Assembly (NCBI GenBank): GCA_033763455.1
Contig: JANRKO010000006.1
Span: 352,001-416,000 of the forward strand
Direction of reading: 5' to 3'
From: Polyangiaceae bacterium
Lineage (GTDB): Bacteria > Myxococcota_A > Polyangia > Polyangiales > Polyangiaceae
DNA length: 64,000 nucleotides
Of this stretch, positions 15,891 to 31,002 are shown piece by piece. Every line of letters starts with the position of its first letter. Position 1 is the first letter of the stretch. A program made the position numbers and the translations under genes. The notes beneath the pieces were generated by a model. That model was not told where the DNA came from and made no database searches. It saw nothing but the letters and a program-made list of their open reading frames with translations.

Positions 15891-16796
15891 ATGCGCAAGT
15901 CTGCACCAGATTTCGGCGACCAAACGGTCGAAACAACCATCTCGCGGGATGCGTTGGGACAGGTCACGTTCGCGCAGCAAGCGTGCTTGGTGGTCCTAGC
16001 TGGGCCCCGGATCGGTCAGCGTGTGGCACTCGCGGGCAAAGCGCTCAGTATTGGCCGAGGCAGCAAGAATCGACTCATCTTTGATGCTGATTCGGTGAGC
16101 CGTCAGCATGCGTCTATCGAATGGACGGGGGCCGCGCATCAAGTAAAAGATCTCGGCTCCACGAACGGCACGTTCGTGAATGAACGGCGCGTTATCGATT
16201 GTGTTTTGAAAGATAGCGACCGCGTGCAGCTTGGGAAAGTGCTGCTGAAGTACATTTCGAGCGGGAATATCGAGAGCGTCTACCATGCAGAAATTCAGCG
16301 GCTCACGCGCTTCGACGGGCTTACAGGTGTGCCCAATCGTCGGCATTTCGACGAAGTTCTCGAGAGTGAATTCACCCAGCTTGCCGAGCACCAGCGCCCC
16401 TTAAGCGTTGTCGTTTTCGATCTCGATCACTTCAAGCAAGTGAACGACAAACACGGGCACCCCGCTGGGGATTCCGTGCTCAGGCAGGTCGCCGAAAGAG
16501 TTGCAAAGGTGCTGGGTTCGGAGCTGTTCTTGGCGCGTACGGGCGGGGAAGAGTTTGCCGTAGTGTGCCCCGGCATGCCCGTGGAGTTGGCGGGCGAAGT
16601 GGCAGAGAGAATTCGCGCCTGCGTAGAAGCTGAGCGCTACATGTTCGACGGCACCGCAATTCCCATGACGGTGAGCCTGGGCGTGGCTGCTGCAAGCTCG
16701 CTCAATCCTCCCAATATCCCCGCGCTTCTCGGGGAGGCCGATAGGCGCCTGTACGTCGCAAAATCGCACGGTCGCAACCGCGTGTGCTCAACCTAG
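15891..16796 (+). CDS. FHA-GGDEF diguanylate cyclase
   Basis: FHA (IGR...VSRQHA...DLGSTNGTFVN) and DLDHFKQVNDKHGHPAGD...GGEEF. Confidence 0.95.
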   Translation: MRKSAPDFGDQTVETTISRDALGQVTFAQQACLVVLAGPRIGQRVALAGKALSIGRGSKNRLIFDADSVSRQHASIEWTGAAHQVKDLGSTNGTFVNERRVIDCVLKDSDRVQLGKVLLKYISSGNIESVYHAEIQRLTRFDGLTGVPNRRHFDEVLESEFTQLAEHQRPLSVVVFDLDHFKQVNDKHGHPAGDSVLRQVAERVAKVLGSELFLARTGGEEFAVVCPGMPVELAGEVAERIRACVEAERYMFDGTAIPMTVSLGVAAASSLNPPNIPALLGEADRRLYVAKSHGRNRVCST

Positions 16797-16847
16797 TTGA
16801 ACACCTCGTTGCGGCGCGCTCTTCGAAGGCCGATAGCCGGATCAGCG

Positions 16848-17468
16848 TTAGCGTATCTTGCCGATGTTTGACACTAAGGCACAGTTGGCTACAGAACGGG
16901 CCAGACGTTGTTTTGCGAGCTCAAAGTTGTCGAGAAGCTCTACGTGCCCCTGTTTGATGCGTAGGGTACCCACGTATTCGCAGCGGTCTTTGGCTTTGGG
17001 GAACTCTAGGTTGACGACGATCGTGCCCGTCTCTCGCTGAACTCCGTTGAAGGTACTGCTGGGATGGGTTACCGCGTATCGCCCTTGGCCGCTCGAACTG
17101 TAGAGTGGTCGCATTTGGGCTCGGGTTGTGACGTTGGAGGTGGACGTCACTCCTATGGAAGTCAAATAGAAGGGCTCCTGGTCAGCGCGAACGCTAAAAA
17201 CTCCACCAGATTGGAGTGCGTCTTGGGTTAACCCACGAAGGGGAAACATTTCCTTCGGGTTGCCAAAATCCTCGCTATCCTGGAAGTACAAGTAACCGAG
17301 GGCAGTAGTTTTATCTTCTACTATTAGTTCTCCGATAACGACTCGCTCATCGGCGCCCACCCAATCAACGTTATTGGCTCGGATGTAGCCTTTCTGGCAG
17401 CCCGCGAGGCTGCAGATTACGCCGAGGAACGCTGCGATTCGACTGTCGTTACGTATTGCCACCCACAT
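16848..17468 (-). CDS. Hypothetical lipoprotein
   Basis: Long ORF with a signal peptide ending in LAGC; visibly lower GC than its neighbours. Confidence 0.6.
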   Translation of the reverse strand: MWVAIRNDSRIAAFLGVICSLAGCQKGYIRANNVDWVGADERVVIGELIVEDKTTALGYLYFQDSEDFGNPKEMFPLRGLTQDALQSGGVFSVRADQEPFYLTSIGVTSTSNVTTRAQMRPLYSSSGQGRYAVTHPSSTFNGVQRETGTIVVNLEFPKAKDRCEYVGTLRIKQGHVELLDNFELAKQRLARSVANCALVSNIGKIR

Positions 17469-17582
17469 CAGCCGCCAGCCTAGCAAGGCCCACTCACGGT
17501 GCCAATCGGTGCGTGGCGCAACGCGCAGATCAGGTGGCTTCTTCGCGTTGACCGCCTGGTAGTCGTCTGTTTGAAATCATCG

Positions 17583-17881
17583 TAGATTAACTACTGGTAG
17601 GTGTCGGCCATCCCCGTAAGTCCTCAAATCGGGCTCGGTTTTGGGATTGGGCGCTCAAGTTCCACGCTGGCCCTTTAGTGCGTGCATTATCCCCAATCCC
17701 AAAAGCGAGCAGCCGCGCTGCCCGAGGCTGATCATGTCGCAACCTTTCCGCTGCAGCGCGGAGCCTGGACGCACCCAGCCCCGCCCGCGTCTCCCGCTTC
17801 GGGAGACGCTTGGTGAGGGGCAAGCTGCCGCGAGCAGCGGCAGCTGGGGAGGGCATCTCACTCCTTGAAGCTAGATCAGGG
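17583..17881. repeat. ~300-bp multi-hairpin dispersed element, copy 1
   Basis: Collinear with 29128-29430: TAGATTAACTACT ... four stem-loops ... GATCAGGG. Confidence 0.9.
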
Positions 17882-17933
17882 AACACGCACGGCTGAAGCC
17901 AACGAAACGCTGGCCAGGCGCCTCGCCCTGAAC

Positions 17934-19208
17934 TTAGGCACTCGCGCGAGTTGAGTTGCGCCGACCTTTGGGAGCGCCGTTGGCGGAGCCGTTCGTCTTC
18001 GGGGCGGGTGCGCTTTTCGCAGCCGGTGCGCTCTTGGCCGGAGCTGCAGCTTTGCCCAGAAGATCGTCCGCCATCTTGGCAGCGCGGTGCGTGCTTTCCC
18101 AAGAGAACTCTTTGCGACCAAAGTGGCCGTAGGCCGCCGTATCGCGGTAGATGGGGCGCAACAGATCCAACTCCTCGATGAGAGCGCGCGGACGCATGTC
18201 AAACTCCTCAGAAACGTACTTCTGGAGCTTCTCATCGCCGATCTTGCCGGTGCCAAATGTGTTCACGTACACGCCCATCGGCTTGGCAACGCCGATGGCG
18301 TACGCCACCTGCACTTCGACTCGCGACGCGAGCCCGGCGGCCACAATGTTCTTCGCCACGAAGCGCGCGTAGTAGCAAGCGGAGCGATCCACCTTTGAGG
18401 GATCTTTACCGCTGAAAGCGCCGCCACCATGGCGACCCATGCCACCGTAGGTATCTACGATGATCTTACGGCCCGTGAGGCCCGCATCACCAAAAGGACC
18501 ACCGACAACAAAGCGACCCGTCGGGTTTACGAAGTACTTGGTCTTCGCATCGAGAAGGTGCTTGGGGAGGCTCTTTTTGATCACGAGCTCCATGACGGCA
18601 TCTTTGAGCGTCTTGTACTTCACGTCTTCGGAGTGTTGCGTGGAGAGCACCACAGCATCAATGCGCTTGGGCTTGTCGTTCTCGTACTCCACGGTGACCT
18701 GGCTTTTGGCGTCCGGCCGCAGAAAATCAACCTTGCCGGCTTTTCTGAGGGACGCAATCTGCTTCACCATTTGGTGTGCGTACATGATGGGGGCTGGCAT
18801 AAGCTCCGGGGTTTCGTCGCACGCGTAGCCGAACATCAGGCCTTGGTCGCCCGCGCCCTGCTCCTTGAACATCCCTTTGCCTTCGGTCACACCTTGGGAG
18901 ATATCCGGTGATTGCGGCTCAATGGCGGTGAGCACACCGCAGGTGTTGTAGTCGAAGCCCATCGAAGAATCGGTGTAGCCAATCTCTTTGACGGTCTGGC
19001 GAGCGATCTTTGCAAAATCCACCTTGGCAGTGGTGGTGATCTCGCCTGCAACGACAATAAAGCCGGTCTTGCAGAGCGTTTCGCACGCAACGCGGCTCAT
19101 CTTGTCTTGGGTCAAAATAGCGTCCAACACCGCATCGGAGATGGCGTCGCACATCTTGTCGGGATGGCCTTCAGAAACGGACTCGGAGGTGAAAAGATAT
19201 TGGCTCAT
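17934..19208 (-). CDS. metK: S-adenosylmethionine synthetase
   Basis: [35 protein letters not shown]. Confidence 0.99.
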
Positions 19209-19355
19209 CGCGTATCGCTCGTTTGTTTGAGGTTTGTTTGGGGTCTGGGCCGTGTGTATCGGGCCGCGAAGCCCAAAAGGCGGCGGACCCTATCACGGAT
19301 TAATCGCGCTGGCAGTACGGGCGTCGAAGGGTTGGGCGGCCCAGGGCGTGCGGGT

Positions 19356-19760
19356 TCAGTCGCCAAATTCTCGGCGATTTTCGGGGGCTTGGGCGGCGGA
19401 GCCGGTGGACGGTTGCGGTGGGGCCACCCTCAGGCGTTGGGCGGGGGTCCGGTGAAGCGTCAGGCGCAGCACCCTTGGCCCACGAGTGACGGTGAGCTTG
19501 ACCGGGTCACCCGCGTCTCCGCTTAGCAATTGGCGCAGTTGTGCGTCGGTGAGGTCCGCTACTGCAACTCCGTCGATGAACAAGATCTCATCGCCCGCAA
19601 GCAGGCCCGCTTGCTCGGCGGCCAAACCCTTCGGCGCCTCGCGAATCGTGACACGCCCCGAAGCATCTTTCGCCAACAAAGCTCCGATGGTCCCGCGAGG
19701 CGCAGCGCAGCCGACCAAGGACGCGGCCAGGAGCGTGACGGCGGCGCAGCGGATTTTCAC
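19356..19760 (-). CDS. PDZ-domain lipoprotein
   Basis: LVGC lipobox; AEQAGLLAGDEILFIDG PDZ motif. Confidence 0.85.
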   Translation of the reverse strand: MKIRCAAVTLLAASLVGCAAPRGTIGALLAKDASGRVTIREAPKGLAAEQAGLLAGDEILFIDGVAVADLTDAQLRQLLSGDAGDPVKLTVTRGPRVLRLTLHRTPAQRLRVAPPQPSTGSAAQAPENRREFGD

Positions 19761-20942
19761 TTAGCTACGGTACCCGGCGTTAACGTCTACATATTGGTGG
19801 CCGAGATCCGTCATGAAGTAGCGAACATGGCCAGGCCCTGCCCCCAGGCGTACGTGGATGGAGAACTTCGGGCCCTTCATAACTTCCTTCGCTCGCGCCT
19901 CGGCCTCACTGCCGACTCCGACGCCGCGTTCCACGATCACGACATCGTTGATAGCTATTTGCGCAACGTTCGGATCAAACAACACCCCAGAACGACCGGC
20001 TGCCGCCAAAATTCTGCCCCAATTCGGATCGCAGCCGGCAATGGTGGTCTTCACTAAGAGTGAGGTGGCGATCGTTTTGGCGACCTTGAAGGCTTCGGCT
20101 TCCGTGCCCACGCCGCTCACCTTGAGCTCCACCAGATGTTCGCTGCCCTCGCCATCGGCGACAATAGACTGTGCGAGCTCAGCGAACACGGTGGTCAATG
20201 CCGCCTCAAGCTCCTGCTCAGTAGCCTCGCCGGCCGCACCCGAAGCCAAGACGAAAACGCTGTCGTTGGTGCTGGTGTCCCCGTCTACGGAGCAGGCATT
20301 GAACGTAAGATCAGTCGCTCGTTCCAATGCGCGAGCAAGTGTTGCAGCGCTGCATTTCGCGTCGGTTACAGCGAAAGCCAGCATGGTGGCGTGGAGCTTG
20401 CCGTCGGCTGAGAGGTCTGGGTGGATCATTCCGGCGCCTTTGGCCATTGCGAGCACGCGGGCTCCGCTGCCACCTGGAATGGCTGCCTGGGCGAGCTTGG
20501 GCCAGCGATCTGTGGTGAGGATCGCCTGAGAAAAAGCCTCATAGCCGTCTGAGGCAAGGCCACCTATCAAATCAGGGACGCGCCCCAAAATGAGCTCGGC
20601 TCGCAGCACTTCCCCAATAACCCCCGTGGAGGCAGGCAACACCTGCTCAGGCGGACAACCAAGAGCTTCGGCTATTGCGTTGGTGGTGGTGAGCGTGGCG
20701 GCAAGACCGGCTTCACCGGTACAGGCATTCGCACAACCGCTATTCACCAAGATGGCTCGCGCAACACCGGTGCGTACGCGCGTCAACGCAACTTCTACGG
20801 GAGCTGCTTTTACTAAGTTGCGAGTGAAAACGCCGGCCGCGGTGGCTGGAGCATCTGCTACCAACAAACCGACATCTCTGCCGCCGCGCTTCTTCAGCCC
20901 GCACTCCAAGCCCGCGAAACGAAAGCCCTTAGGAACGATCAT
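19761..20942 (-). CDS. argJ: Ornithine acetyltransferase / glutamate N-acetyltransferase
   Basis: NSGCANACTG, STGVIG, KGAGMIHP, ATML, DGDTSTND, DGEG, DPNWGRI. Confidence 0.97.
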   Translation of the reverse strand: MIVPKGFRFAGLECGLKKRGGRDVGLLVADAPATAAGVFTRNLVKAAPVEVALTRVRTGVARAILVNSGCANACTGEAGLAATLTTTNAIAEALGCPPEQVLPASTGVIGEVLRAELILGRVPDLIGGLASDGYEAFSQAILTTDRWPKLAQAAIPGGSGARVLAMAKGAGMIHPDLSADGKLHATMLAFAVTDAKCSAATLARALERATDLTFNACSVDGDTSTNDSVFVLASGAAGEATEQELEAALTTVFAELAQSIVADGEGSEHLVELKVSGVGTEAEAFKVAKTIATSLLVKTTIAGCDPNWGRILAAAGRSGVLFDPNVAQIAINDVVIVERGVGVGSEAEARAKEVMKGPKFSIHVRLGAGPGHVRYFMTDLGHQYVDVNAGYRS

Positions 20943-20965
20943 GCGGGGCTTATATCAGCACCTTT

Positions 20966-21041
20966 TGGAGCCGTCGATCGGACTTGAACCGATGACCTGT
21001 GCTTTACGAAAGCACTGCTCTACCAACTGAGCTACGACGGC
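20966..21041 (-). tRNA. tRNA-Thr (anticodon CGT)
   Basis: Reverse complement GCCGTCGTAGCTCAGTTGGTAGAGCAGTGCTTTCGTAAAGCACAGGTCATCGGTTCAAGTCCGATCGACGGCTCCA; full cloverleaf with encoded CCA. Confidence 0.97.
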
Positions 21042-21201
21042 GAAAGATGGGCACCGGTACTATCCCAGGCGCCCAACCCTGTAAACCAAACTTTGGCGGA
21101 TTTACCCACTTTCGCTGGGTTTTCCGCTGTGGGCTCGGCCTTTGAGTGAGGGCATGGGGGCAGCATGTGCACCCCCAGAAGCGGCCTGAATGCGGGAGAA
21201 C

Positions 21202-22083
21202 TTAACCCGTTGAGGCCCCGCTGGCAGTTTTTCGAAGGCGGCACAGGTACATGGGCCCCATTCCGCCCGCATCTGGCAGGAAGCTCCAGCCAAACCGCTC
21301 GGCCTGTCCCACGCTGAACCTGACGGGCTCCTCTTCGCACGCTGAGCCCAACTTTCGTAACAGCCGGCCCACCACGCGGGAGTTTTCGTCTTCGACGAGC
21401 GCGCACGTTGCGTACACCAATACGCCGCCGGGCTTCAAACTGGCGAAAGCGGAACGAAGCAATGAGTATTGCTGAACCGCCAGGTGCTGAACTCGGGCTT
21501 CCGACCAAGCAGCGAGGGCCGCTGGATCAGAAAGCACGTGACGTTCCGATGAACACGGCGCGTCGAGCAGAATGCGATCGAATTGCTCGGGCTGGTACCG
21601 CCCAAAGCGCGAGGCATCGTAGCCGCGCACTTCGATCTGTTCACGTATTTCGGCGGGCAGATATTCGGAAAGGACGCGCAAGAGGCGTGTGCGCCGCGCT
21701 CTGGAGAGTTCATTGAGAACCAGCGGCCGCAAGCTGGGGTGAGGGAGGCCCCGTTCGGATTGGGTGTCAGCAGGGCTCAGTGCTTGGCCTGCATTCTGTG
21801 CGAGAAACAGTTTCTCGGCTAGGATCAAGGATTTGCCGCCAGGGGCCGCGCACATATCCAGGACGCGCATCCCCGGTTCAACCAGCAAGCTCTCGGCGAC
21901 CAGAATCGAAGCTCCATCCATGCTGTACGTCGCGGATAGCTCGGGTCGCGCGACAGAGAACGCGTTCAGCCGTTGCGTGTGCACGCTCTCCGCCAAGAGT
22001 GCCGCACGCAGTGTTGCCCAACGTTCGCCGAAGCGCCGTTGATAAAATTCTTCGAAACCGAGCGCGCCGCGCAACCGAGCCAT
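21202..22083 (-). CDS. RsmB/NOP-family RNA m5C methyltransferase
   Basis: VLDMCAAPGGKS, FDRILLDAPCS, LVYATC...EN. Confidence 0.92.
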   Translation of the reverse strand: MARLRGALGFEEFYQRRFGERWATLRAALLAESVHTQRLNAFSVARPELSATYSMDGASILVAESLLVEPGMRVLDMCAAPGGKSLILAEKLFLAQNAGQALSPADTQSERGLPHPSLRPLVLNELSRARRTRLLRVLSEYLPAEIREQIEVRGYDASRFGRYQPEQFDRILLDAPCSSERHVLSDPAALAAWSEARVQHLAVQQYSLLRSAFASLKPGGVLVYATCALVEDENSRVVGRLLRKLGSACEEEPVRFSVGQAERFGWSFLPDAGGMGPMYLCRLRKTASGASTG

Positions 22084-22229
22084 GGGGTGAGCAGTCTACC
22101 GGTCTCGCAAAATCAAGAAACCCAAGCCAAGGCTGATGGAGGTTCGCTGCACCTGTCACCCTCCCGGCAGCACAGCCGGCTAGGCCTCCCAAACCACGTT
22201 GGCGACCAATCTGGTGGGGTCGGTGCGGA

Positions 22230-22293
22230 CGGCAGTTTTTGACACATGGAGAAATCTGCCGCGGCAGTTTTTGACACATGGAGAAATCTGCCG
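22230..22293. repeat. Perfect 32-bp tandem duplication of an imperfect palindrome containing TTGACA
   Basis: CGGCAGTTTTTGACACATGGAGAAATCTGCCG x2, ending 12 bp upstream of the AAA+ ATPase ATG. Confidence 0.93.
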
Positions 22294-22305
22294 TAGCCTA
22301 ACCCG

Positions 22306-23427
22306 ATGAAAAACCTCCGGAAACGCTACCTCACGCCCCAGATCACGGCTGATCTTGGGCGCAAGATGGTCTTTCTGGCGGGTGCACGCCAAGTGGGAAA
22401 AACGACTCTCGCGAGGGCGCTGCCAGGGGCCAAGAACGGCTATCTCAACTGGGATGATGACCACGACCGCCATCTCATGTTGAGTCGGGAGCTTCCGGCA
22501 TCGCCACTCTGGGTTTTCGACGAAATCCACAAGTATCGTTCCTGGCGTGGTTGGTTGAAGGGCCTCTACGATAAGCGTCTGCCCAATCAGCGGATCCTCG
22601 TGACTGGGAGTGCGCGCCTCGATTTGTATCGGTATGGAGGCGATTCCCTGCAGGGGCGTTATCACCTCTTACGGCTGCATCCCTTGAGCCTTGCTGAGCT
22701 CAAGCTCACCACGCAGTCAGATTTTCTGAGCCTGCTGCGGTTGGGTGGATTTCCAGAGCCATTTTTCGGTGGCTCCGAAGTCGAAGCTCGACGCTGGTCG
22801 CGCGACTACCGCGCTCGCCTGGTGCGAGATGATATTGCTAGCCTGGAACCCATCGCTGACCTCGGGAACATTGAGCTCCTGATGCAACGGTTGCCTGCCC
22901 TCGTAGGATCTCCGCTTTCGATCAACGCGCTGCGCGAAGATCTACAAGTGAGCCACAAGCTGCTTGAAAGCTGGGTGGGCGTGCTCGAAAGGATGTACGC
23001 CGTCTTCCGCGTACCACCTTTTGGCACCCCCCGCCTCAGGGCCATAAAGAAGGAACAAAAACATTACCATCTGGACTGGAGCCTGGTTGCCAACGAGGGC
23101 GCACGCTTCGAAAACTTGGTGGCTTGCCATTTACTAAAGTGGGTCCACTTCATCGAAGACACGGAAGGGCGTGACGTGGAGCTGCGATATTTTCGCGATC
23201 GCGATGGCCGGGAGGTGGACTTCGTAGTTGTCGAAGGGAACAAGCCGATCCTGATGGTTGAAGCCAAACTTTCGGATACAGCTCCCGATCGCAGCCTTCG
23301 TTACCTCGCCGCCAAGTTTCCGGGGGTACCAGCGATCCAAGTTACCGCTGCAAACGCGAAAGATTTCGTCACGCCTGAGGGCATTTCAGTGCGTCCGGCG
23401 CTTGGGTTCCTGCGTACCTTGATTTAA
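22306..23427 (+). CDS. AAA_14 ATPase with DUF4143 / PD-(D/E)xK-like C-terminus
   Basis: GARQVGKTT, FDEIH, VTGSA, SLQGR, GGFPE, FENLV, YFRDRDGREVDFV, VEAK. Confidence 0.92.
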   Translation: MKNLRKRYLTPQITADLGRKMVFLAGARQVGKTTLARALPGAKNGYLNWDDDHDRHLMLSRELPASPLWVFDEIHKYRSWRGWLKGLYDKRLPNQRILVTGSARLDLYRYGGDSLQGRYHLLRLHPLSLAELKLTTQSDFLSLLRLGGFPEPFFGGSEVEARRWSRDYRARLVRDDIASLEPIADLGNIELLMQRLPALVGSPLSINALREDLQVSHKLLESWVGVLERMYAVFRVPPFGTPRLRAIKKEQKHYHLDWSLVANEGARFENLVACHLLKWVHFIEDTEGRDVELRYFRDRDGREVDFVVVEGNKPILMVEAKLSDTAPDRSLRYLAAKFPGVPAIQVTAANAKDFVTPEGISVRPALGFLRTLI

Positions 23428-23451
23428 ATCCCCCCCTCCGCTCGGGACGCT

Positions 23452-25071
23452 TCAGTCCTCGTAGTCCGGATTTTGCCAGGGCTGCTTCGGCTCGCCGTCG
23501 TCCTTCTCCACGATGAGGCAACGCGTGGTGAGCAGTGTGCCCGCGACGGAAGCCGCGTGCTCCAGAGCGCAACGAACCACTTTGGTGGGATCGATCACAC
23601 CGCTCTTGATGAGATCTTCGTATTCGCCTGTAGCGGCGTTCAAGCCGAAACCGCCGCTTCCATTGCGAACTTTGTCGATCACCACGCTCGGCTCAAGACC
23701 AGCATTCGAAGAGATCATGCGCAGGGGCTCTTCAAGGCACCGGCGCACAATGTTGACCCCGACGCGTTCGCCATCAGTGACTGTGAGCTTGTCGAGCACA
23801 CTCTGGCAGCGCAAAAGAGCCACGCCACCACCGGGTACGATGCCTTCCTGTGCCGCCGCGCGTGTGGCGTACATCGCGTCTTCCACGCGATCTTTACGTT
23901 CCTTGAGTGCCATCTCGCTGTGGGCGCCCACCTTGATCACAGCAATGCCGCCGCTCATCTTGGCCAGGCGTTCCTGCAGCTTTTCCTTGTCAAAATCGCT
24001 GGAAGTCTCCTCGATTTGACGACGGATGAGCTCCTGGCGCCCTGTGATGGCCGCCTTGTCGCCCAGGCCGTCGACGATCAGCGTGTTTTCGTGATCCATG
24101 ACCGCGCGGCGGCAGCGGCCGAGATCCGCCAGGGTGGCGCTTTCGATCTTGCGACCGGTCTCTTCCGCGATGACGACACCGCCCGTGAGCACGCCGAGAT
24201 CTGCCAGGATTTCTTTACGCCGATCGCCAAAAGCCGGCGACTTCACCGCGCAGCACTGCAAGGTGCCGCGCATCCGGTTGATCACCAAGGTAGCTAGCGC
24301 CTCAGGATCGAAATCTTCCGCGATGATGAGAAGCGGCTTGTTAGCCTTCACCACCTGCTCCAGTAGTGGAACGAGCTCAGCGAGGTTCGAGATCTTGCGC
24401 TGGTGCAACAGCACATAGGGATCTTCGAGTACGCACTGCATGCGCGCAGAGTCCGTCACGAAGTACGGCGACATGTAGCCCTTATCGAACTGCATGCCAT
24501 CTACCGTTTCGAGCACGGTTTCAGTGTTTTTCGCCTCTTCAATCGTGATGACGCCGTCTTTGCCCACCTTCTCCATGGCTTGAGCGAGCATCTGGCCCAC
24601 CTCTTCGTCGCCGTTGGCGCTGATGGTTCCGATGCGCGCGATTTGTTCGTTGGTTTCGATGGGGCGCGAGAGCTTCTTCAACTCCGCAACCACAGCTTCC
24701 ACGGCGATGTCGATACCGCGCTTGATGAACATAGCGTCGTGGCGAGCCGCCACCATCGCCGCGCCTTCACGATAGATGGCCTCGGCGAGCACAGTGGCTG
24801 TGGTAGTGCCGTCGCCCGCTAGCTCCGCCGTCTTGGAGGCGACTTCGCGTACCAGACGGACTCCCACGTTCTGAAGGCGATTGGGTAGGTCGATCTCCTT
24901 GGCGACGGTGACACCGTCCTTAGTAATGCGGGGTTGGGAAGCACCACTGCTGAACACCACATTTCGCCCCTTGGGGCCCAAGGTTACCTTGACGGCTCGG
25001 GCTAACGCCTCGACACCATCGAGCAAATGCTTCTGAGCTACTAGATCGTATACAATCTCACGTGCGGCCAT
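23452..25071 (-). CDS. groEL: Chaperonin GroEL (stand-alone paralog)
   Basis: [50 protein letters not shown]. Confidence 0.98.
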
Positions 25072-25212
25072 TGCTTAAGCTTCTCCTCGGGGCGCGCAAT
25101 GTGCGCACCGGGCCGGCCGCTGGCAAGGGGAGAATTGGGGGTCAGAGGCGAATTTGACCCCACTCGCTGGCGTTGCGGTACTTGGCTGCCGTGTTCCGCT
25201 TGAGGGTCATCC

Positions 25213-27087
25213 ATGAGTTTTCGAAAAATTTCCGCTGAGACGCGGATTCTCCCGCCTGTTGTCAACGTGAGCCCCGGAAATAGTCCGAGGGGCGTGAGGT
25301 CCGGCTGGCCAATCGCGGTCATCTCGGTCTTCGGCCTCGTTGCCCAAGGCTGCTCCGGCGGGGACAGTTCTCGGAACTCCAGCCCATCGCGGCCAGGAGC
25401 ATACGCGGGTTCTGGCAACGTGATGGCCTCGGGAGGCACGGGCTCGGGAGGCAGCCCGGTAGCGAGCTCGGGCGGTACCAGTGGATCAGGCGTCCCCAAC
25501 GCTCCGGTCGACTGTGCCACTCGGCCACCACCGGCGCCGACGCCACTTCGGCGCCTCACGTTGGAGCAGTATCAGAACAGTGTGCGTGAGCTTTTGGCCC
25601 AAGCGCCCGGAGCCAGCAAAGCCGCTGAAGGAGTATTTGCTCAGCTGCCTGTGGACGGCAGGAACCAAGATGTCTTCACGAGCATGGACGATCGCGTGTC
25701 GCAGAGCCACGTCGATGGCTTCTACAACATTGCCAAGGCCGTCGCAGGAATCCTTCGCAGCAACGCGAACGAAGCTCAAGCGTTGAGTTGCCCTACGATT
25801 GACCAGCCGTGTTTCAACACATTCGTTAGGAATTTTGGGTTGCGTGCGTTTCGTCGTCCGCTCTTGGCTCCCGAGCTTGCTCGCTACGGGGAATTGTTCG
25901 GCTTGGAGGGCACTGGCGAAGGGGCTGTCGCCGCGGCGACATTTTCGTTCCTAATGGCGCCCGAGTTTCTGTACCGCGTGGAAGTGAACGGCACCCCAGC
26001 ACCTGCCAACGCGCTTGAGCTAACGCTTTCGGATTTTGAAAAGGCCACGCGCCTGGCGCATCATTTCTGGCATGGCCCCCCGGACGCAGAGTTGCTTTCT
26101 GCGGCCGAAAAAGGGCAACTGAGCACTCCGAGCGGGTTTGAGGCAGAGCTCTTGAGGGTGGCGGCGGCGCCTCAATCCGAGGTTGCTTTGCGGCGGTTCT
26201 GGGGCCAGTGGCTCGGCGTGGAGGGGTTCCACGGCTTCGTCGATACTCCCGCGTTTCGTGCCTTCGCTGGTACTCCGCAGCCGGGCGCCGTTTTGGCAGA
26301 TGCTTTGAAGCAAGAGTTGTGGGCCATGGTGAATGCTTTCACGTGGCAAGGTTCCGGAACGCTCTCGGACCTTTTTACCACTACCGATGTTTTCGCCACC
26401 TCGCCCGAACTGGCGGCCATCTACGGTGTTCCGGCGTGGGATGGTACTTCCAAACGAACGCAGTTTGGTCCAAATGGGCGCACCGGCTTACTCACGCGTG
26501 CAGGTTTACTGGTGAGCGGCAATGAGCTCACGAACCCTATCAAGCGTGGCGCTTTCGTGCTCAAGCACCTGCAATGCGTTCAACTTTCCCCGCCCGCCAA
26601 CTTGCCCGCGGAAGCGCTCGCGTTGCCCACGATCGATCCCAAACAAAGTACGCGTCAGCGCTTCGCGGCAAAGACCTCCCCTGCCGAATGTGCGGCTTGC
26701 CACACAACCTTCAATCCCTACGGCTTTGCGTTCGAGGAGTACGACGCCTTGGGTCGCCTTCGTACCACGGAGAAAGTGTTCGACGATGCCGGCACGTTGT
26801 TAGCGGAGGTGCCCGTGGATGCGAGCGTAACGGCAACCATCGATAACAAGCCGGTTGCGGTTAAGGGAGCGGCCGACCTTTCGGCGGCCCTCGCCACTTC
26901 CGACGCCGTGAGCCAGTGTATTGCTCAACAATACTTCGCTTACACCTTCGGCCGCCCTGCTGCCGGAGCTGATCAATGTGTGGTGGCCGAGCTGGGCACG
27001 GCGCTCAAGGCCACGGGGCTCAACGGATTTGTGAAAGCTATAGCTAAAACGAGTGCGTTCCAGGAACGCGTGATCGGGACTCCCTGA
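25213..27087 (+). CDS. DUF1592/DUF1588-type lipoprotein with CxxCH
   Basis: LRRLTLEQYQNSV, GLRAFRRPL, PEFLYR, RTGLLTRAG, NPIKRG, CAACH..FNPYGFAFEEYDALGR. Confidence 0.88.
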   Translation: MSFRKISAETRILPPVVNVSPGNSPRGVRSGWPIAVISVFGLVAQGCSGGDSSRNSSPSRPGAYAGSGNVMASGGTGSGGSPVASSGGTSGSGVPNAPVDCATRPPPAPTPLRRLTLEQYQNSVRELLAQAPGASKAAEGVFAQLPVDGRNQDVFTSMDDRVSQSHVDGFYNIAKAVAGILRSNANEAQALSCPTIDQPCFNTFVRNFGLRAFRRPLLAPELARYGELFGLEGTGEGAVAAATFSFLMAPEFLYRVEVNGTPAPANALELTLSDFEKATRLAHHFWHGPPDAELLSAAEKGQLSTPSGFEAELLRVAAAPQSEVALRRFWGQWLGVEGFHGFVDTPAFRAFAGTPQPGAVLADALKQELWAMVNAFTWQGSGTLSDLFTTTDVFATSPELAAIYGVPAWDGTSKRTQFGPNGRTGLLTRAGLLVSGNELTNPIKRGAFVLKHLQCVQLSPPANLPAEALALPTIDPKQSTRQRFAAKTSPAECAACHTTFNPYGFAFEEYDALGRLRTTEKVFDDAGTLLAEVPVDASVTATIDNKPVAVKGAADLSAALATSDAVSQCIAQQYFAYTFGRPAAGADQCVVAELGTALKATGLNGFVKAIAKTSAFQERVIGTP

Positions 27088-27094
27088 GGTTGCC

Positions 27095-28738
27095 ATGAAG
27101 TTTGATCGTCAACATCGCAGATTTTTCCTCCAGGGTCTGGGTGGCGCCATGCTCGCGCTGCCATTTTTGCCGTCCCTCATGGGCGATGAAAAGAAAGCTC
27201 ATGCGCAGAACGCCGCCAAGAAGCGCTTCATTACTATCAAGTCTTACAGCGCGCAGAACATCCGGGATTGGTATCCGTCTCGGGCAGTGCAAGGCTACAC
27301 CTTGCGGGACTACGGTGCGGATGAAGTGGGGGGTGGCAACGGCAAGCGTGACGGCACGCTCGCGCTTTCTCAGAAGCTGCGGGAGAGCAGCGGAAAACAT
27401 TCGGACAATAAGGAGTACTTTGGCACTTATGCGCCCCTCACGGACTTCGCCAATCCAGGTATCTCTAAGATCTTAGGCCCGGCACTGAACCCATTCCTCA
27501 GCAAGCTATTGTTGTTGCGTGGGCTCGATTTCATGCCCATGACCAACCACAACGACGGTGGCATTTTGGGCAATTATAAGGGCGGCTCGATTGACGGGGG
27601 CGCTGCTGCGATGGAGGAGTTTCCCACGATTGATCAGGTGTTGGCCTATAATTCTGGGTTCTACCCGCAAACACCTTCCGGTGGCCGATCGCTACATCTT
27701 TCCCCCGGGCGCGCCAACACGTTTTCCTACACCCACCAAGGGAACCTTACAGGACCCGTCACGCAGGTAACGGCGGACATCGATCCGAAGGTTGTGTTCG
27801 ACCGGCTGTTTGCCAATCTCGTCCCCCCTGGCGGTACACCTCCACCGGTGGATCCCAATAAGTACCTTGTGGATCGCGTGGTCGCAGATTACGCAAGCTT
27901 GAAGCAGAATCCTCGCCTGAGCATGGCCGATCAACAAACGGTCGAACGCCACATCGGCTTCCTCGCGGAATTGCAAGCGCGCCTCAACGCCACGCCGAGC
28001 ACGGTCGCTTGCACCAGGCCCAATGCACCTGCTTCTTCAACGCTCCAGGGCACCGATCCTGCCGAGATTACCCGAGTGTTTGAGTCCATGACGGATCTCA
28101 TCGCTGCGGCCGTTCAGTGCGATTTGACGCGCATTTTTACCCTCGATGTGTACAAAGCCGTGGGCCAGGTAAACGGTGCCGATCAGGGTTTCGAGCACAG
28201 TTGCGCGAGCTGCCAGGGCAACCCCAACCCCACCGATTGGCACCGGGCGGCCCACGATTGGGATCAAATTCCACAGCGCGACAAAGTTGTGTCGCTCAAC
28301 GAATGGATGACTCGCAAGATTTTTGTGAGGCTGCTTGAGAAGCTGGATGTCCCAGAAGCAGATGGCAAGACGTATCTGGACAACTCTTTGGTTCTATGGG
28401 GCAATGAGCTAGGGATGAATCATCTCAGCTACAGTGTGCCCACACTCATGGCGGGTAGCCTGGGTGGGCATTTTGAAACAGGCCGCTACATCGACTATAT
28501 CGACTGGGATCGCTCCGACAAGTTTTCGCAGCACAACGGTATGGTCATTGAGGGAGTGCCATACAATCGCCTCTTCATCTCCATTTTGCAGGCATTTGGC
28601 CTAGCCCCGAGCGACTATGAGCGCCAGCCCGGCGTTGGCTACGGCGAAACACGCACCCTCGGTAAGCCTGCGGATGCGTTCGCGGTGGACTACGATCCCA
28701 GTCAAATCGCCCGGCCGTTGCCAGCTCTGCGCGTGTAA
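27095..28738 (+). CDS. DUF1552 domain protein with Tat signal
   Basis: RRFFLQGLGGAMLALPFLPSL, TIDQVLA, DPKVVFDRLF, CDLTR, LDNSLVLWGNELG. Confidence 0.88.
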   Translation: MKFDRQHRRFFLQGLGGAMLALPFLPSLMGDEKKAHAQNAAKKRFITIKSYSAQNIRDWYPSRAVQGYTLRDYGADEVGGGNGKRDGTLALSQKLRESSGKHSDNKEYFGTYAPLTDFANPGISKILGPALNPFLSKLLLLRGLDFMPMTNHNDGGILGNYKGGSIDGGAAAMEEFPTIDQVLAYNSGFYPQTPSGGRSLHLSPGRANTFSYTHQGNLTGPVTQVTADIDPKVVFDRLFANLVPPGGTPPPVDPNKYLVDRVVADYASLKQNPRLSMADQQTVERHIGFLAELQARLNATPSTVACTRPNAPASSTLQGTDPAEITRVFESMTDLIAAAVQCDLTRIFTLDVYKAVGQVNGADQGFEHSCASCQGNPNPTDWHRAAHDWDQIPQRDKVVSLNEWMTRKIFVRLLEKLDVPEADGKTYLDNSLVLWGNELGMNHLSYSVPTLMAGSLGGHFETGRYIDYIDWDRSDKFSQHNGMVIEGVPYNRLFISILQAFGLAPSDYERQPGVGYGETRTLGKPADAFAVDYDPSQIARPLPALRV

Positions 28739-29127
28739 GCGCTTACTGCCCTGCGGACCCTGATCCGGTGGCACAGATGTTGACGCTAATTTTGGGGGGC
28801 GGCTGGAGGTCGCTCCGGCGCCGCTCCGGCGCAAGGGCGAGCAACTTTGAGGGGTTGAGGCCGGCACGGAGCTCGATTTACTGAGGCGAGGCGCGCTCTA
28901 GAGCGCAGCTGCTAAGGAATGGGCAAAGCTACGCCCCGTCTCTGAAAATCGAGCCCGTTTTAAGAGCGACCAACGAGGACGGCACAAGCCAGCGTCGTCA
29001 GACGGTGCAGACAACGAGCGCGGCCAATCGACGGCGGGAGGCGACAAAGTCGATTAGGCGTTCGGCCGCGCGAGCGATGCGGAGCACGAGCGAATTCCCT
29101 GAGGTCGCGGTCTGCCCCGCATCTTCT

Positions 29128-29430
29128 TAGATTAACTACTAGCGGATGTCGCCCATTCCCGTAATCTCCAATAGTGCTCGTTTTTGGGATTGGGCATCCG
29201 TGGGTGGTTGCCGCCCCTTCCACGTTGTTTATCCCCAATCCCAAAAACGAGCAGCCGCGCTGCCCGCGACTTTTCAGGTTGCAACCCCTCCGTTGCAGCG
29301 CGGAGCTGCCAGGCACACGCCCCTCCCGCGGCTCCCGCCTTCGGGAGACGCTTGGCGAGGGGCAAGCTGCCGCTTCATGCGGCAGCTGGGGTGGGCCCCC
29401 AAACGGTTACGCCCTACCGCTGGATCAGGG
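29128..29430. repeat. ~300-bp multi-hairpin dispersed element, copy 2
   Basis: Collinear with 17583-17881; perfect 19-bp stem 29176-29194/29234-29252. Confidence 0.9.
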
Positions 29431-29514
29431 GCGGAGCGAGCGGCTGGTCAGACGTCACGTACCAGGCGATGATGGTTGGTTGAAGGGCGAGGATGCGTCG
29501 CTCAAGGAGGAGTC

Positions 29515-31002
29515 ATGGCGGAGCAAGGCACAGAGGGTTTCGGGTTTGAGCACGCAGTGGGGTTCGCACCGGGGGAGCACAATGGGGCGCTGGGCCTTGG
29601 GGCTCTAGAAGTTCAATACAGTGAGCTTTTCGCAGAAGCTTTATCGGACGGAGTGATCACGGCCGAAGAGCGCGCTCACCTTGAACGGGCTGCGGGCAAC
29701 CTTGGCCTCGATAGGGCAAAGCTCTTGAAGCTCGAAGCGGCGCTGCTTGCTGCTTACGAGAGCCACCGCAACGTGCGGGTGGTTGAGCAGTATGAAGAAC
29801 GGGCAAGCTCGCTCGCTCCGCTCCAGATGGGCCAGAAAGGCGGGGCGGATTCGCCGGCTTTGTTGCAACGCATTTCAGAGCTTGAGGCGCGCGTCTTGGA
29901 GCTTGAAGCGGAGCTTCGGCGGGCTCAGTCGTTGGTGAATGTTGAGGTGGATCTCGGTGGCCTCCAGACGGCGGCCCAAGTGGCGTCCGAAGATCCGCAG
30001 GAGGTTTGGCGTTCGATTCGTCGGGATCCTACCAACCCAGAACACCTCCGGGTGCTCTACAGAGTTTACGACGCCCATGCCGAGGCCGATGGTCGCTGGT
30101 GTGCGGCACAAGCGCTCGTCGCTCTCAATGCGGCGGGGCCTGAAGAAAAGGCTTGTTTCGAGGCTGGCAGAAAGCTCAGCTTGATCACGCCGACGGCTAG
30201 CATTCTCCCCGAAAGTTGGCGTGACTTCCTCTTTCACCCAGAAGAAGAGATCATCGCGGGTCAGATCTTGGGCCTCATCGCGCCCGCAGTTCTGATTGGT
30301 CGCGTGAGTGCGCTCGGTCGCGACGGTCGCCTCCACCGGCCACACCCCGAGCACCTGCAAGATCCTACCGAATCCACGCTTACCGCTGTACGAGCCCTCC
30401 CTTGGGCAGCTGCCATCTTGGGTCTTCCAACGCCTCAGATCTACGTGGAGAAAGAGAGAGACTCAGGTTACGAAATCCTCCCCGGCGTTCCGCCTGTTAC
30501 GGTGATTGGTAGGCGGGCACTCTCTGGCCTTACTCAACCAGGTTACGCGTTCAAAGTGGCGCGGCACCTCGTGGGTTATCGCAAAGAGCATTTTGTTAAG
30601 AGCCTGTTCAGTGCCATTCCAGATCTAGAGGATCTGTTCCTTGCGGCTCTCTGCATCGGAAACCCCGGGCTTCCCATCGCTGATGATATGAAGCGGCGCG
30701 TGGCCCCGATAGCGCAGGCGATTGAGCCACTTTTGGACGCGCCACAGCGCGATACGCTGAAGAGCTGCTTTTTGCATTTCGTGGAAGAAGGCGGGCGCAC
30801 GAACCTCCAGCGCTACAGCCGCTCTGCCGATAAAACGGCTTGCCGTGCCGGGCTCGTACTTGCCAACGATCTGCCCACGGTGGCGACGCTGCTTGAATCA
30901 GAAGAGGGCAAACACGGCGAGCTTTTCAAAGATCTCGTGGTTTTTTCGACGAGCGATCGCTACCTGGGCATTCGTAAACAGATCGGGATTGCACTCGCGT
31001 AA
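29515..31002 (+). CDS. Hypothetical protein (TerB-like N-terminus, coiled coil, helical C-terminal domain)
   Basis: AAGGAGG RBS before ATG at 29515; ALSDGVITAEERAHLERAA; LQRISELEARVLELEAELRR. Confidence 0.8.
   Translation: MAEQGTEGFGFEHAVGFAPGEHNGALGLGALEVQYSELFAEALSDGVITAEERAHLERAAGNLGLDRAKLLKLEAALLAAYESHRNVRVVEQYEERASSLAPLQMGQKGGADSPALLQRISELEARVLELEAELRRAQSLVNVEVDLGGLQTAAQVASEDPQEVWRSIRRDPTNPEHLRVLYRVYDAHAEADGRWCAAQALVALNAAGPEEKACFEAGRKLSLITPTASILPESWRDFLFHPEEEIIAGQILGLIAPAVLIGRVSALGRDGRLHRPHPEHLQDPTESTLTAVRALPWAAAILGLPTPQIYVEKERDSGYEILPGVPPVTVIGRRALSGLTQPGYAFKVARHLVGYRKEHFVKSLFSAIPDLEDLFLAALCIGNPGLPIADDMKRRVAPIAQAIEPLLDAPQRDTLKSCFLHFVEEGGRTNLQRYSRSADKTACRAGLVLANDLPTVATLLESEEGKHGELFKDLVVFSTSDRYLGIRKQIGIALA

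What the first reader, a model, noticed from the sequence alone, without database searches (positions are those of the whole stretch)
17583..17881. ~300-nt multi-hairpin element present twice, with conserved stems and divergent loops
Seen: 17583-17881 and 29128-29430 are collinear. Both start TAGATTAACTACT and contain the stems GCTCGKTTTTGGGATTGGG/CCCAATCCCAAAARCGAGC (about 40-nt loops that differ between copies), CCGCGCTGC/GCAGCGCGG, GCCCC..CTCCCG/CGGGAG..GGGGC and AGCTGCCGC/GCGGCAGCT (5-nt loops differ); both end GATCAGGG. Neither has a convincing ORF or adjacent transposase. Inference: retention of stems with loop turnover suggests selection on structure, i.e. an unannotated ncRNA or a non-autonomous mobile element, possibly with variable guide-like loops.
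Basis: partly seen in the sequence, partly recalled or inferred. Interest (0 to 1): 0.72.

Follow-up and report, generated by a model that had tools for sequence, protein, structure and literature searches.

The report
Structured mosaic MITE family in a myxobacterium
The two ~300-base look-alike stretches are copies of a genus-specific, non-coding "jumping" repeat (a miniature transposon with inverted ends and 5-base target duplications) whose hairpins are conserved, which is a fairly ordinary kind of bacterial junk/mobile DNA rather than a new RNA gene.

Summary
Window 17583-17881 and 29128-29430 are collinear, about 78% identical, and share four hairpins.

They are not a two-copy element. 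They belong to a dispersed repeat family with about 38 places in this 6.56-Mb draft genome. Eleven contig ends break inside it. It occurs in 3 of 3 genomes of the same genus, and was not found in 21 other genera of the family.

In at least 11 copies a left module ("X") precedes it. X begins with CCCTGATCCGGYGG, the reverse complement of the right terminus CCRCYGGATCAGGG.

The complete element in the window is 28758-29430 (673 bp). It has perfect 14-bp inverted ends and a 5-bp direct repeat, GCGGA, on both sides. Two further copies also carry perfect 5-bp duplications, and one of these has an empty site in this genome.

Copy A (17548-17881) is a truncated, Y-only copy that lies 3' of metK.

The stems show compensatory changes: 12 of 51 pairs, with 96.7% of cells paired. 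The loops do not match flanks or any other locus.

No Rfam family, coding capacity, transposase partner or RNA data was found.

Verdict: a MITE-like mosaic non-autonomous transposon, a new member of a known kind.

The parts
28753..28757 (.). Left copy of the 5-bp target-site duplication GCGGA of the complete element (copy B)
   Evidence: The flank ends ...CTGCGGA immediately before the left inverted repeat. The same GCGGA follows the right inverted repeat.
28758..28771 (+). Left terminal inverted repeat, CCCTGATCCGGTGG
   Evidence: It is the exact reverse complement (13 of 14, Y position) of the right terminus. The same motif starts module X in other copies.
28758..29089 (+). Module X, the left half of the element. 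It starts 20 nt after the stop of the DUF1552 gene (27095-28738).
   Evidence: 9-14 genomic copies. X lies directly upstream of Y in 11 copies (C6 twice, C70, C43, C30, C79, C2, C47, C33, C39, C38).
29090..29430 (+). It lacks about 85 nt of the family's 3' tail but keeps the last ~24 nt.
   Evidence: nhmmer model positions 6-398, score 330.8.
29176..29252 (+). Hairpin H1 of copy B: 19-bp stem and 39-nt loop
   Evidence: Of 19 pairs, 6 have changes on both sides across 24 copies. Copy G3_C13 has the whole stem rewritten but still paired.
29255..29303 (+). Hairpin H2 of copy B: 9-bp stem CCGCGCTGC/GCAGCGCGG
   Evidence: 96.8% of cells paired. At pair 198/235, U-A is replaced by C-G in 8 of 24 copies.
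29318..29399 (+). Module Z of copy B: double hairpin H3 (29319-29363) plus H4 (29366-29386) followed by GGGGTGGGC. This module also occurs on its own elsewhere in the genome.
   Evidence: solo copies without inverted ends; covariance model R1 finds 29 matches in G000, including this one at C6:381318-381399.
29417..29430 (+). Right terminal inverted repeat, CCGCTGGATCAGGG
29431..29435 (.). Right copy of the 5-bp target-site duplication GCGGA
17548..17881 (+). Copy A: a Y-only (truncated) copy with no module X and no left inverted repeat. Its right terminus is degenerate (AAGCTAGATCAGGG, 17868-17881). It lies 53 nt 3' of the metK stop (metK = 17934-19208, minus strand).
   Evidence: model positions 4-320; metK; upstream DNA is not X..
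17633..17710 (+). Hairpin H1 of copy A. Its loop is of the minority subfamily shared with G0_C35, G1_C57 and G1_C125.
17713..17761 (+). Hairpin H2 of copy A
17777..17857 (+). Module Z of copy A: H3 (17778-17821) plus H4 (17824-17844)
   Evidence: R1 match at C6:369777-369857, 97.6 bits.

Best explanation
The finding is two members of a genus-specific family of non-autonomous DNA transposons. They are MITE-like, though larger and more mosaic than classic MITEs.

A complete element consists of a left module X and a right module Y. It is bounded by 14-bp terminal inverted repeats, CCCTGATCCGGYGG ... CCRCYGGATCAGGG.

Inferred mechanism: a transposase supplied in trans, not found in the assemblies, binds these ends and inserts the element by staggered cuts 5 bp apart, which leaves 5-bp direct repeats.

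Y carries four local hairpins, H1-H4. The H3+H4 pair, here called module Z, also exists as a free-standing ~85-nt intergenic repeat, so Y is a mosaic.

Copies decay by internal deletion (both window copies lack ~85 nt of the tail) or by loss of X (copy A).

The hairpins are kept by compensatory substitutions that mostly distinguish subfamilies. I infer that 'master' copies are under selection to keep the hairpins. The selection could act on mobilisation, or on tolerance or processing when the element is co-transcribed in intergenic regions.

What is shown: the repeat family, inverted ends, target duplications, insertion polymorphism, covariation, and absence of coding capacity.

What is inferred: the trans-acting DDE-type transposase, and what the hairpins do.
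For: Copy number:
- BLASTN with A and B gives 64 HSPs, merging into 33 loci, 18 of them 200 nt or longer.
- nhmmer gives 53 rows. Twelve of these are the palindromic H1 matching itself on the other strand.
- Eleven contig ends break inside the family: in Y at C31, C3, C30, C79, C76, C54; in X at C33, C40, C7, C38, C44.

Inverted ends:
- X starts with the reverse complement of Y's terminus.
- There are 7 end-to-end pairs of 110-1032 bp in G000.

Target duplications:
- Perfect 5-bp repeats flank C6:380758-381430 (GCGGA), C38:30333-30751 (AGGCT) and G001:C6 (L037 1485-1753, GGCGT).
- At the G001 site, G000:C80 has no element and a single GGCGT.

Insertion polymorphism:
- Eight distinct relatives' copies have short element-free counterparts in G000. 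The cleanest is L052 against a 17-nt gap.
- Copy A's region is absent from G001-G003.
- No X or Y lies upstream of the ORF508 orthologue in G001 or G002.

The end motif is specific to the genus:
- With up to 1 mismatch: 22, 37 and 41 hits in G001, G002, G003, against 4, 1 and 4 for the reversed control.
- Exact motif: 7 in G000 against 0-2 in 149 of 150 other genomes of the order.

Neighbours and coding:
- Neighbouring genes of 18 long copies are unrelated to one another, and copies are intergenic in both orientations.
- The 6 internal or overlapping ORFs have no Pfam hit.

Structure:
- 96.7% of 1170 cells are paired, and 12 of 51 pairs have changes on both sides.
- 0 of 500 shuffles reach this, and slid controls give 36-44% paired.
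- The whole element folded as ssDNA has z = -9.4, with the two ends paired.
Against: - No autonomous partner was found. PF13701, PF13546, PF01526 and PF01797 each gave 0 of 4 genomes. None of the 10 PF01609 loci or the 12 fetched PF00665 loci (of 16 matches) carries the end motif. All four assemblies are drafts, 94-95% complete.
- Only 3 of the 10 end-to-end pairs examined have a perfect 5-bp duplication.
- Copy A, L052 and at least 10 solo Z modules lack one or both inverted ends. Their spread needs secondary deletion or another mechanism.
- Complete elements of 419-1032 bp are larger than the usual MITE, described as 'generally less than 200 bp, some ~400 bp' (Delihas 2011, PMC3184786, passage in section 4).
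- Ordinary TIR-dependent transposition does not obviously require four internal hairpins, so the covariation is not explained by this model alone.
Confidence: 0.8

Rival explanations
1. A multi-copy structured non-coding RNA gene, either trans-acting or a cis-regulatory leader or trailer. On this reading the hairpins are the functional product, and the repeats spread by duplication.
For: - Compensatory changes occur in H1, H2 and H3.
- Stability exceeds shuffles.
- There is a weak excess of G-U over A-C mismatches on the + strand: 17 against 10, excluding a doubtful inner helix.
- The core is conserved across four species at about 70-80% identity.
Against: - Inverted ends and 5-bp duplications bound the unit.
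- Many copies are truncated or internally deleted.
- Copies lie in both orientations relative to neighbours.
- The two strands fold equally well.
- No sigma-70-like promoter was found, and the single terminator-like site is at chance level.
- No Rfam family matches at the gathering or E<=1 thresholds.
- The stems are almost pure Watson-Crick palindromes, which fits DNA as well as RNA.
Confidence: 0.08
2. A REP/BIME-like palindromic mosaic moved as single-stranded DNA by a Y1 (RAYT or IS200/IS605-type) enzyme that recognises the hairpins.
For: - The ~85-nt G+C-rich double hairpin Z occurs alone in intergenic DNA without inverted ends: at least 10 solo copies, and 29 R1 matches in G000.
- The family has a mosaic build.
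- One copy fills the gap between convergent genes.
Against: - The Y1_Tnp family PF01797 was not found in any of the 4 genomes, while the control found it in 6 of 14 known genomes.
- IS200/IS605-type insertion makes no target duplication, yet three perfect 5-bp duplications are present.
- The units are far longer than REPs.
Confidence: 0.06
3. Remnants of a guide-RNA-encoding transposon end (IS110 bridge RNA, or a TnpB or IscB omega RNA) whose loops programme target choice.
Against: - Loops are conserved within subfamilies.
- Loops do not match flanks or any other locus beyond chance.
- No Rfam hit, and Rfam includes such families where they are curated.
- 5-bp duplications and inverted ends are not features of those systems. 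That statement rests on my own knowledge and was not tested here.
- No recombinase or nuclease gene lies next to any of the 18 long copies.
Confidence: 0.02

Closest known systems
Bacterial MITEs (e.g. Correia/CREE of Neisseria, ERIC, RUP, Chunjie), as reviewed by Delihas 2011 (PMC3184786; abstract and passages of sections 3, 4, 10-12, 16 seen)
   Same: - Multi-copy and intergenic, with no transposase gene.
- Terminal inverted repeats flanked by direct target duplications.
- Folds into very stable stem-loops.
- Restricted to a narrow taxon.
   Different: - Complete copies are 419-1032 bp, against a usual size under 200-400 bp.
- The stability comes mostly from four local internal hairpins with compensatory changes, not only from end-to-end pairing.
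- No cognate IS with the same ends was found.
Mosaic intergenic repeats: pneumococcal BOX (boxA-B-C), E. coli BIMEs, rhizobial RIMEs, neisserial NIMEs. BOX and RIME are recalled from my own knowledge. BIME and NIME are mentioned in PMC3184786.
   Same: - Modular build: X, Y and Z modules occur in different combinations.
- There are internally deleted forms.
- One module (Z) exists as a free-standing G+C-rich double hairpin.
   Different: - The modules share no sequence with any of those families; no library of them was available, so this was not tested.
- Here the composite has clear inverted ends and 5-bp duplications.
IS1380-family derived elements. This is a lead from memory only: I recall ends beginning CC and 4-5-bp duplications, as for ISEcp1.
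   Same: A 5-bp duplication, and an outer end that begins CC(C)TGAT.
   Different: The IS1380-type transposase family PF13701 was not found in any of the 4 genomes of the genus. No ISfinder comparison was possible. Membership is not claimed.

Membership tests
MITE (non-autonomous TIR transposon) | Terminal inverted repeats at both ends | tested here: met
   A 14-bp repeat, CCCTGATCCGGYGG / CCRCYGGATCAGGG. It is perfect at both ends in window 28758-29430 and in C38:30333-30751. It has up to 2 mismatches per end in 5 more pairs. It is not met by copy A, which lacks the left end.
MITE (non-autonomous TIR transposon) | Flanking direct repeats (target-site duplication) of fixed length | tested here: met
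   Perfect 5-bp repeats in 3 of 10 end-to-end pairs examined: GCGGA, AGGCT, GGCGT. One has an empty site with a single copy of the pentamer. The other 7 have none or a 4-of-5 match.
MITE (non-autonomous TIR transposon) | No transposase gene inside | tested here: met
   Elements are 110-1032 bp. The 6 ORFs inside or overlapping the window copies have no Pfam hit at E<=0.1. Indels between copies are not multiples of three.
MITE (non-autonomous TIR transposon) | Many dispersed copies, with presence/absence differences between related genomes | tested here: met
   own genome; relatives; empty or filled sites.
MITE (non-autonomous TIR transposon) | A cognate autonomous IS with the same ends | tested here: not met
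   Not found in 4 draft genomes. Not found by two exact-pattern scans of the metagenome collection: 0 hits, then 2 chance hits. This is common for MITEs and does not by itself exclude membership.
MITE (non-autonomous TIR transposon) | Small size (usually under 200-400 bp) | tested here: not met
   Complete copies are 419-1032 bp. Only a 110-bp mini form (C76:47770-47879), a 234-bp form (L267) and a 269-bp form (L037) fall in the classic range.
REP / REPIN with RAYT | A Y1 (RAYT) transposase gene in the genome, typically flanked by the repeats | tested here: not met
   PF01797 was found in 0 of 4 genomes. The control found it in 6 of 14 reference genomes.
Rfam-curated structured RNA families | A covariance-model match | tested here: not met
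   Across the whole window at gathering score, only a tRNA matched. Three full-length copies with flanks at E<=1 gave three unrelated weak hits outside the element.
Guide-RNA-bearing transposon ends (IS110 bridge RNA, TnpB/IscB omega RNA) | Variable segment complementary to target or donor flanks, and an adjacent recombinase or nuclease gene | tested here: not met
   Loops have no non-family match beyond chance. Neighbours of 18 copies are unrelated genes. I did not run a dedicated search for IS110 or TnpB genes in the genome.

The most novel reading that the evidence does not exclude
The four-hairpin core (H1-H4, and especially the free-standing Z double hairpin) is not passive cargo. It would be a functional single-stranded module kept by selection.

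Two forms of this reading remain open:
- It is a cis-acting signal for a hairpin-recognising mobilisation step that works alongside the inverted ends. That would explain Y-only and Z-only copies that are still polymorphic between species.
- It is an RNA structure the host now relies on in intergenic transcripts, for 3'-end protection, processing or termination. Copy A sits right behind metK, and several copies abut gene 3' ends.

The evidence does not exclude either form: covariation is real, and no expression data exist.
Probability: 0.12. Interest if true: 0.55.

Novelty: new member of a known kind. Interest (0 to 1): 0.3.

Why it matters
- It explains a conspicuous non-coding feature and a good share of the assembly breaks in this draft genome: 11 contig ends.
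- It provides a marker of recent genome dynamics in an uncultured Polyangiales genus. I found no report of MITEs in myxobacteria in the searchable library.
- It is a clean natural example of a mobile repeat whose internal hairpins evolve by compensatory change.
- It serves as a caution for screens that take covariation alone as proof of an RNA gene.
- It is not a new kind of system.

Tried and rejected
- **Rfam.** The window at gathering score, and three copies at E<=1, gave nothing relevant.
- **First genome contigs pattern scan.** Both H1 arms as an exact pattern gave 0 hits.
- **Second genome-contig scan, looser.** It gave 118 loci and was capped. Only L097 is truly related. Its record title reads 'MAG: Polyangiales bacterium', which I used only for the order-level name.
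- **RNAalifold on the 24-copy alignment.** It missed H1 and paired CCC/GGG runs instead, so I supplied the structure myself.
- **Strand test by G-U against A-C.** 17 against 10, too weak to call.
- **Expression.** No RNA holder is listed: 6 DNA metagenome holders in 4 studies. Laying 4 runs' contigs on 16500-30000 gave only low-depth pieces, plus joints that are other family copies. It says nothing about expression or excision.
- **Partner transposase.** See the Against line. In addition:
  - G001:C68 looked like a 2.9-kb pair of ends but holds DUF1592 and DUF1552 genes, not a transposase.
  - G000:C69 holds a solo 43-nt right end next to ordinary genes.
- **Metagenome scans.** Exact scans with left-end and right-end patterns gave 0 hits and then 2 chance hits.
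- **ORF212 (16848-17486, minus strand).** I considered it as possible cargo or a transposase. It has a lipoprotein-like signal peptide, no Pfam hit, and a 65% paralogue on C39. It is not a transposase.
- **Earlier findings of this scan.** None.
- **Literature.** Siguier et al. 2014 is not held. I saw no table of IS-family ends, so the IS1380 resemblance stays a recollection.

Full report
**Observation**

The two intervals were read and aligned. They are collinear, at 77.6% identity over 281 nt by BLASTN. Both contain TAGATTAACTACT, which occurs only at 17583 and 29128 in the window. Copy A folds better than shuffled sequence on either strand, with z = -3.6 and -3.8.

**Copy number and distribution**

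The window is G000:C6:352001-416000 of a 6.56-Mb, 92-contig draft that is 93.7% complete and 59.3% G+C.

- BLASTN with both copies returns 64 HSPs that merge into 33 loci. Eighteen are 200 nt or longer.
- A profile of 11 long copies returns 53 rows. Twelve of these are the palindromic H1 matching itself on the opposite strand.
- Eleven contig ends break inside the family. This is the usual sign of near-identical young copies. The most similar pair is 97% identical over the core, the median pair 82% and the lowest 62%.
- The family is present in 3 of 3 other genomes of the same genus. It was not found in 21 genomes of other genera of the same family. Two of 16 genomes from other families of the order gave only marginal hits of 48 nt or less.
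- One public record that truly matches (79% over 361 nt) is titled 'MAG: Polyangiales bacterium'. The host is therefore an uncultured myxobacterial genus.

**True extent of the element**

- It starts about 35 nt upstream of TAGATTAACTACT.
- In most copies it carries an extra ~85-nt 3' tail, which ends in ...CCTTAYCGCYGGATCAGGG.
- Both window copies lack most of that tail but keep its last ~24 nt.

Upstream of copy B lies a second repeat, module X, with 9-14 genomic copies.

X begins with CCCTGATCCGGTGG, the reverse complement of Y's terminus CCGCTGGATCAGGG. The complete element in the window is therefore 28758-29430 (673 bp) with perfect 14-bp inverted ends. Six more end-to-end pairs of 110-1032 bp exist in G000.

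**Target duplications and empty sites**

The two G000 copies with perfect ends are flanked by perfect 5-bp direct repeats:

- GCGGA at 28753-28757 and 29431-29435.
- AGGCT at C38:30333-30751.

A 269-bp internally deleted copy in G001 (L037) is flanked by GGCGT. At the orthologous place, G000:C80 has no element and one GGCGT. Over its last 15 nt the left-flank match is short and was judged by eye.

In all, 3 of 10 end-to-end pairs examined have a perfect 5-bp duplication. One more has 4 of 5, and six have none.

Eight distinct copies in the relatives have short element-free counterparts in G000. The cleanest is L052 against a 17-nt gap between convergent genes.

In the other direction:

- Window 16785-18021 holds a lipoprotein-like ORF plus copy A. 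It is replaced by 183 nt in G002, and by similarly short gaps in G001 and G003.
- No X or Y lies upstream of the ORF508 orthologue in G001 or G002.

**Specificity of the end motif**

- With up to one mismatch it occurs 22, 37 and 41 times in G001, G002 and G003. The reversed control pattern occurs 4, 1 and 4 times.
- The exact motif occurs 7 times in G000.
- It occurs 0-2 times in 149 of 150 other genomes of the order. The remaining genome has 5 copies inside a 42-nt tandem repeat.
- That tally includes one genome flagged unpublished, G147, with a single match.

**Structure**

I aligned 24 long copies from four species and counted my four-hairpin structure on them.

- 96.7% of 1170 cells are paired.
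- 12 of 51 pairs show changes on both sides.
- None of 500 shuffles reaches any of these values except 'further pair types', where 1 of 500 does.
- Slid controls give 36-44% paired.
- One G003 copy has the whole H1 stem rewritten yet still paired.

Most compensatory changes are shared by subfamilies. Examples are C-G to U-A in 7 copies and U-A to C-G in 8 copies. They therefore reflect evolution of master copies rather than drift of individual insertions; this is my inference.

The stems are almost purely Watson-Crick. G-U outnumbers A-C only 17 to 10, so RNA and single-stranded DNA cannot be told apart.

The complete element folded as DNA has z = -9.4, with the two ends paired.

**Mosaic nature**

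The H3+H4 double hairpin (module Z, ~85 nt) occurs alone, without inverted ends, in at least 10 intergenic places.

A covariance model of Z built from 44 instances finds 29 matches in G000, 10 in G002 and 19 in G003. In 98 genomes of other genera of the family, 4 genomes have 1-2 weak matches each.

Other variants join the 5' leader directly to Z (C63) or delete H3-H4 (C19).

**What it is not**

- **Not an Rfam family.** No match was found.
- **Not coding.** None of the 6 internal or overlapping ORFs has a Pfam hit.
- **Not promoter-bearing by a simple scan.** No promoter-like site was found in 28600-29600.
- **Not guide-like.** Loops of 14 own-genome copies have no match outside the family beyond chance.
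- **Not linked to a gene family.** Neighbouring genes of 18 long copies are unrelated, and both orientations occur. In the window the neighbours are metK, a GGDEF protein, a DUF1592/DUF1552 pair and an unknown 508-aa ORF.

**Partner search**

No transposase bounded by these ends was found.

- IS1380-type (PF13701), IS701-type (PF13546), Tn3-type (PF01526) and Y1 (PF01797) families gave no match in any of the four genomes.
- The 10 DDE_Tnp_1 loci and the 12 fetched rve loci lack the motif.
- Two exact-pattern scans of the metagenome collection gave nothing related.
- All four assemblies are drafts, so absence is not shown.

**Comparison with known kinds**

The features that define MITEs are inverted ends, flanking direct repeats, no transposase and stable stem-loops (Delihas 2011, PMC3184786, passages seen). 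All are met.

The usual small size and a known cognate IS are not met.

The modular build recalls BOX, BIME and RIME mosaics; BOX and RIME are recalled from my own knowledge. From memory, a 5-bp duplication with ends beginning CC recalls the IS1380 family, but that transposase is not in these genomes, and I claim no membership.

I found no report of MITEs in myxobacteria. Searching 'miniature inverted-repeat transposable' with 'myxobacteria' gave 1 irrelevant paper. Searching 'MITEs' with 'Myxococcus' gave 26 papers; of the 10 listed, 9 concern arthropod mites or unrelated topics and the tenth is a Thiomargarita genome paper, none on myxobacterial MITEs.

**Verdict**

This is a genus-specific, structured, mosaic, non-autonomous transposon family. 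Copy B is a complete element and copy A a truncated one.

It is a new member of a known kind, of modest interest. The open point worth following is why the internal hairpins are kept by compensatory change.

Noticed in passing
window 22084-23441: A 373-aa ORF (22306-23427, AAA_14 + DUF4143 ATPase) sits in a ~1.36-kb stretch that is replaced by about 20 nt in the syntenic region of G002 (L202). It is a lineage-specific gene insertion between conserved neighbours.
   Followed up: partly
window 16785-17547: ORF 16848-17486 (minus strand, 212 aa) has a lipoprotein-like signal peptide with an LAGC lipobox and no Pfam hit. It is absent at this site from G001-G003. It has a 65%-identical paralogue at G000:C39:162846-163496 and a 34% one on C33.
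   Followed up: partly
window 20969-21041 (-): A single tRNA gene (Rfam RF00005, 71.5 bits) lies between argJ (19761-20942) and the next gene. It is the only Rfam gathering-level hit in the 64-kb window.
   Followed up: no
window 25213-28738 and L233 (G001:C68): A DUF1592/DUF1588 (PSD/PSCyt) gene followed by a DUF1552 (HXXSHH) gene occurs in the window and as a paralogous or orthologous pair in G001:C68. In both places an end motif of the repeat family lies just after the DUF1552 stop.
   Followed up: partly
L237 (G001:C132) 647-2180: A ~1.5-kb IS with 18-bp inverted ends (TAGTAAGCATGCTCTCAT) and a DDE_Tnp_1 transposase is inserted about 7 nt from an end motif of the repeat family. A related TAGTAAGCATGC palindrome also occurs inside the insert of L063 (G003:C20). 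This is a different mobile element that seems to land in or next to these repeats.
   Followed up: no
G041:C42:6445-6626 (L219): The 14-nt end motif occurs five times at 42-nt spacing in a genome of another genus of the family. This is a tandem repeat, probably unrelated to the transposon ends.
   Followed up: no
module Y 5' part, e.g. window 29126-29141 and 17581-17596: The A+T-rich block TTAGRTTAACTACT, with a GTTAAC core, is the best conserved unpaired stretch of the element across all four species. It could be a protein-binding site. No promoter-like match was found around it.
   Followed up: partly
module X left end, e.g. G000:C7:88848-88917, C30, C38: The left subterminal region repeats the TGATCCGG core of the inverted end about 50 nt inside the element (...GGATGTTGATCCGG...). 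This may be a second transposase-binding site.
   Followed up: no
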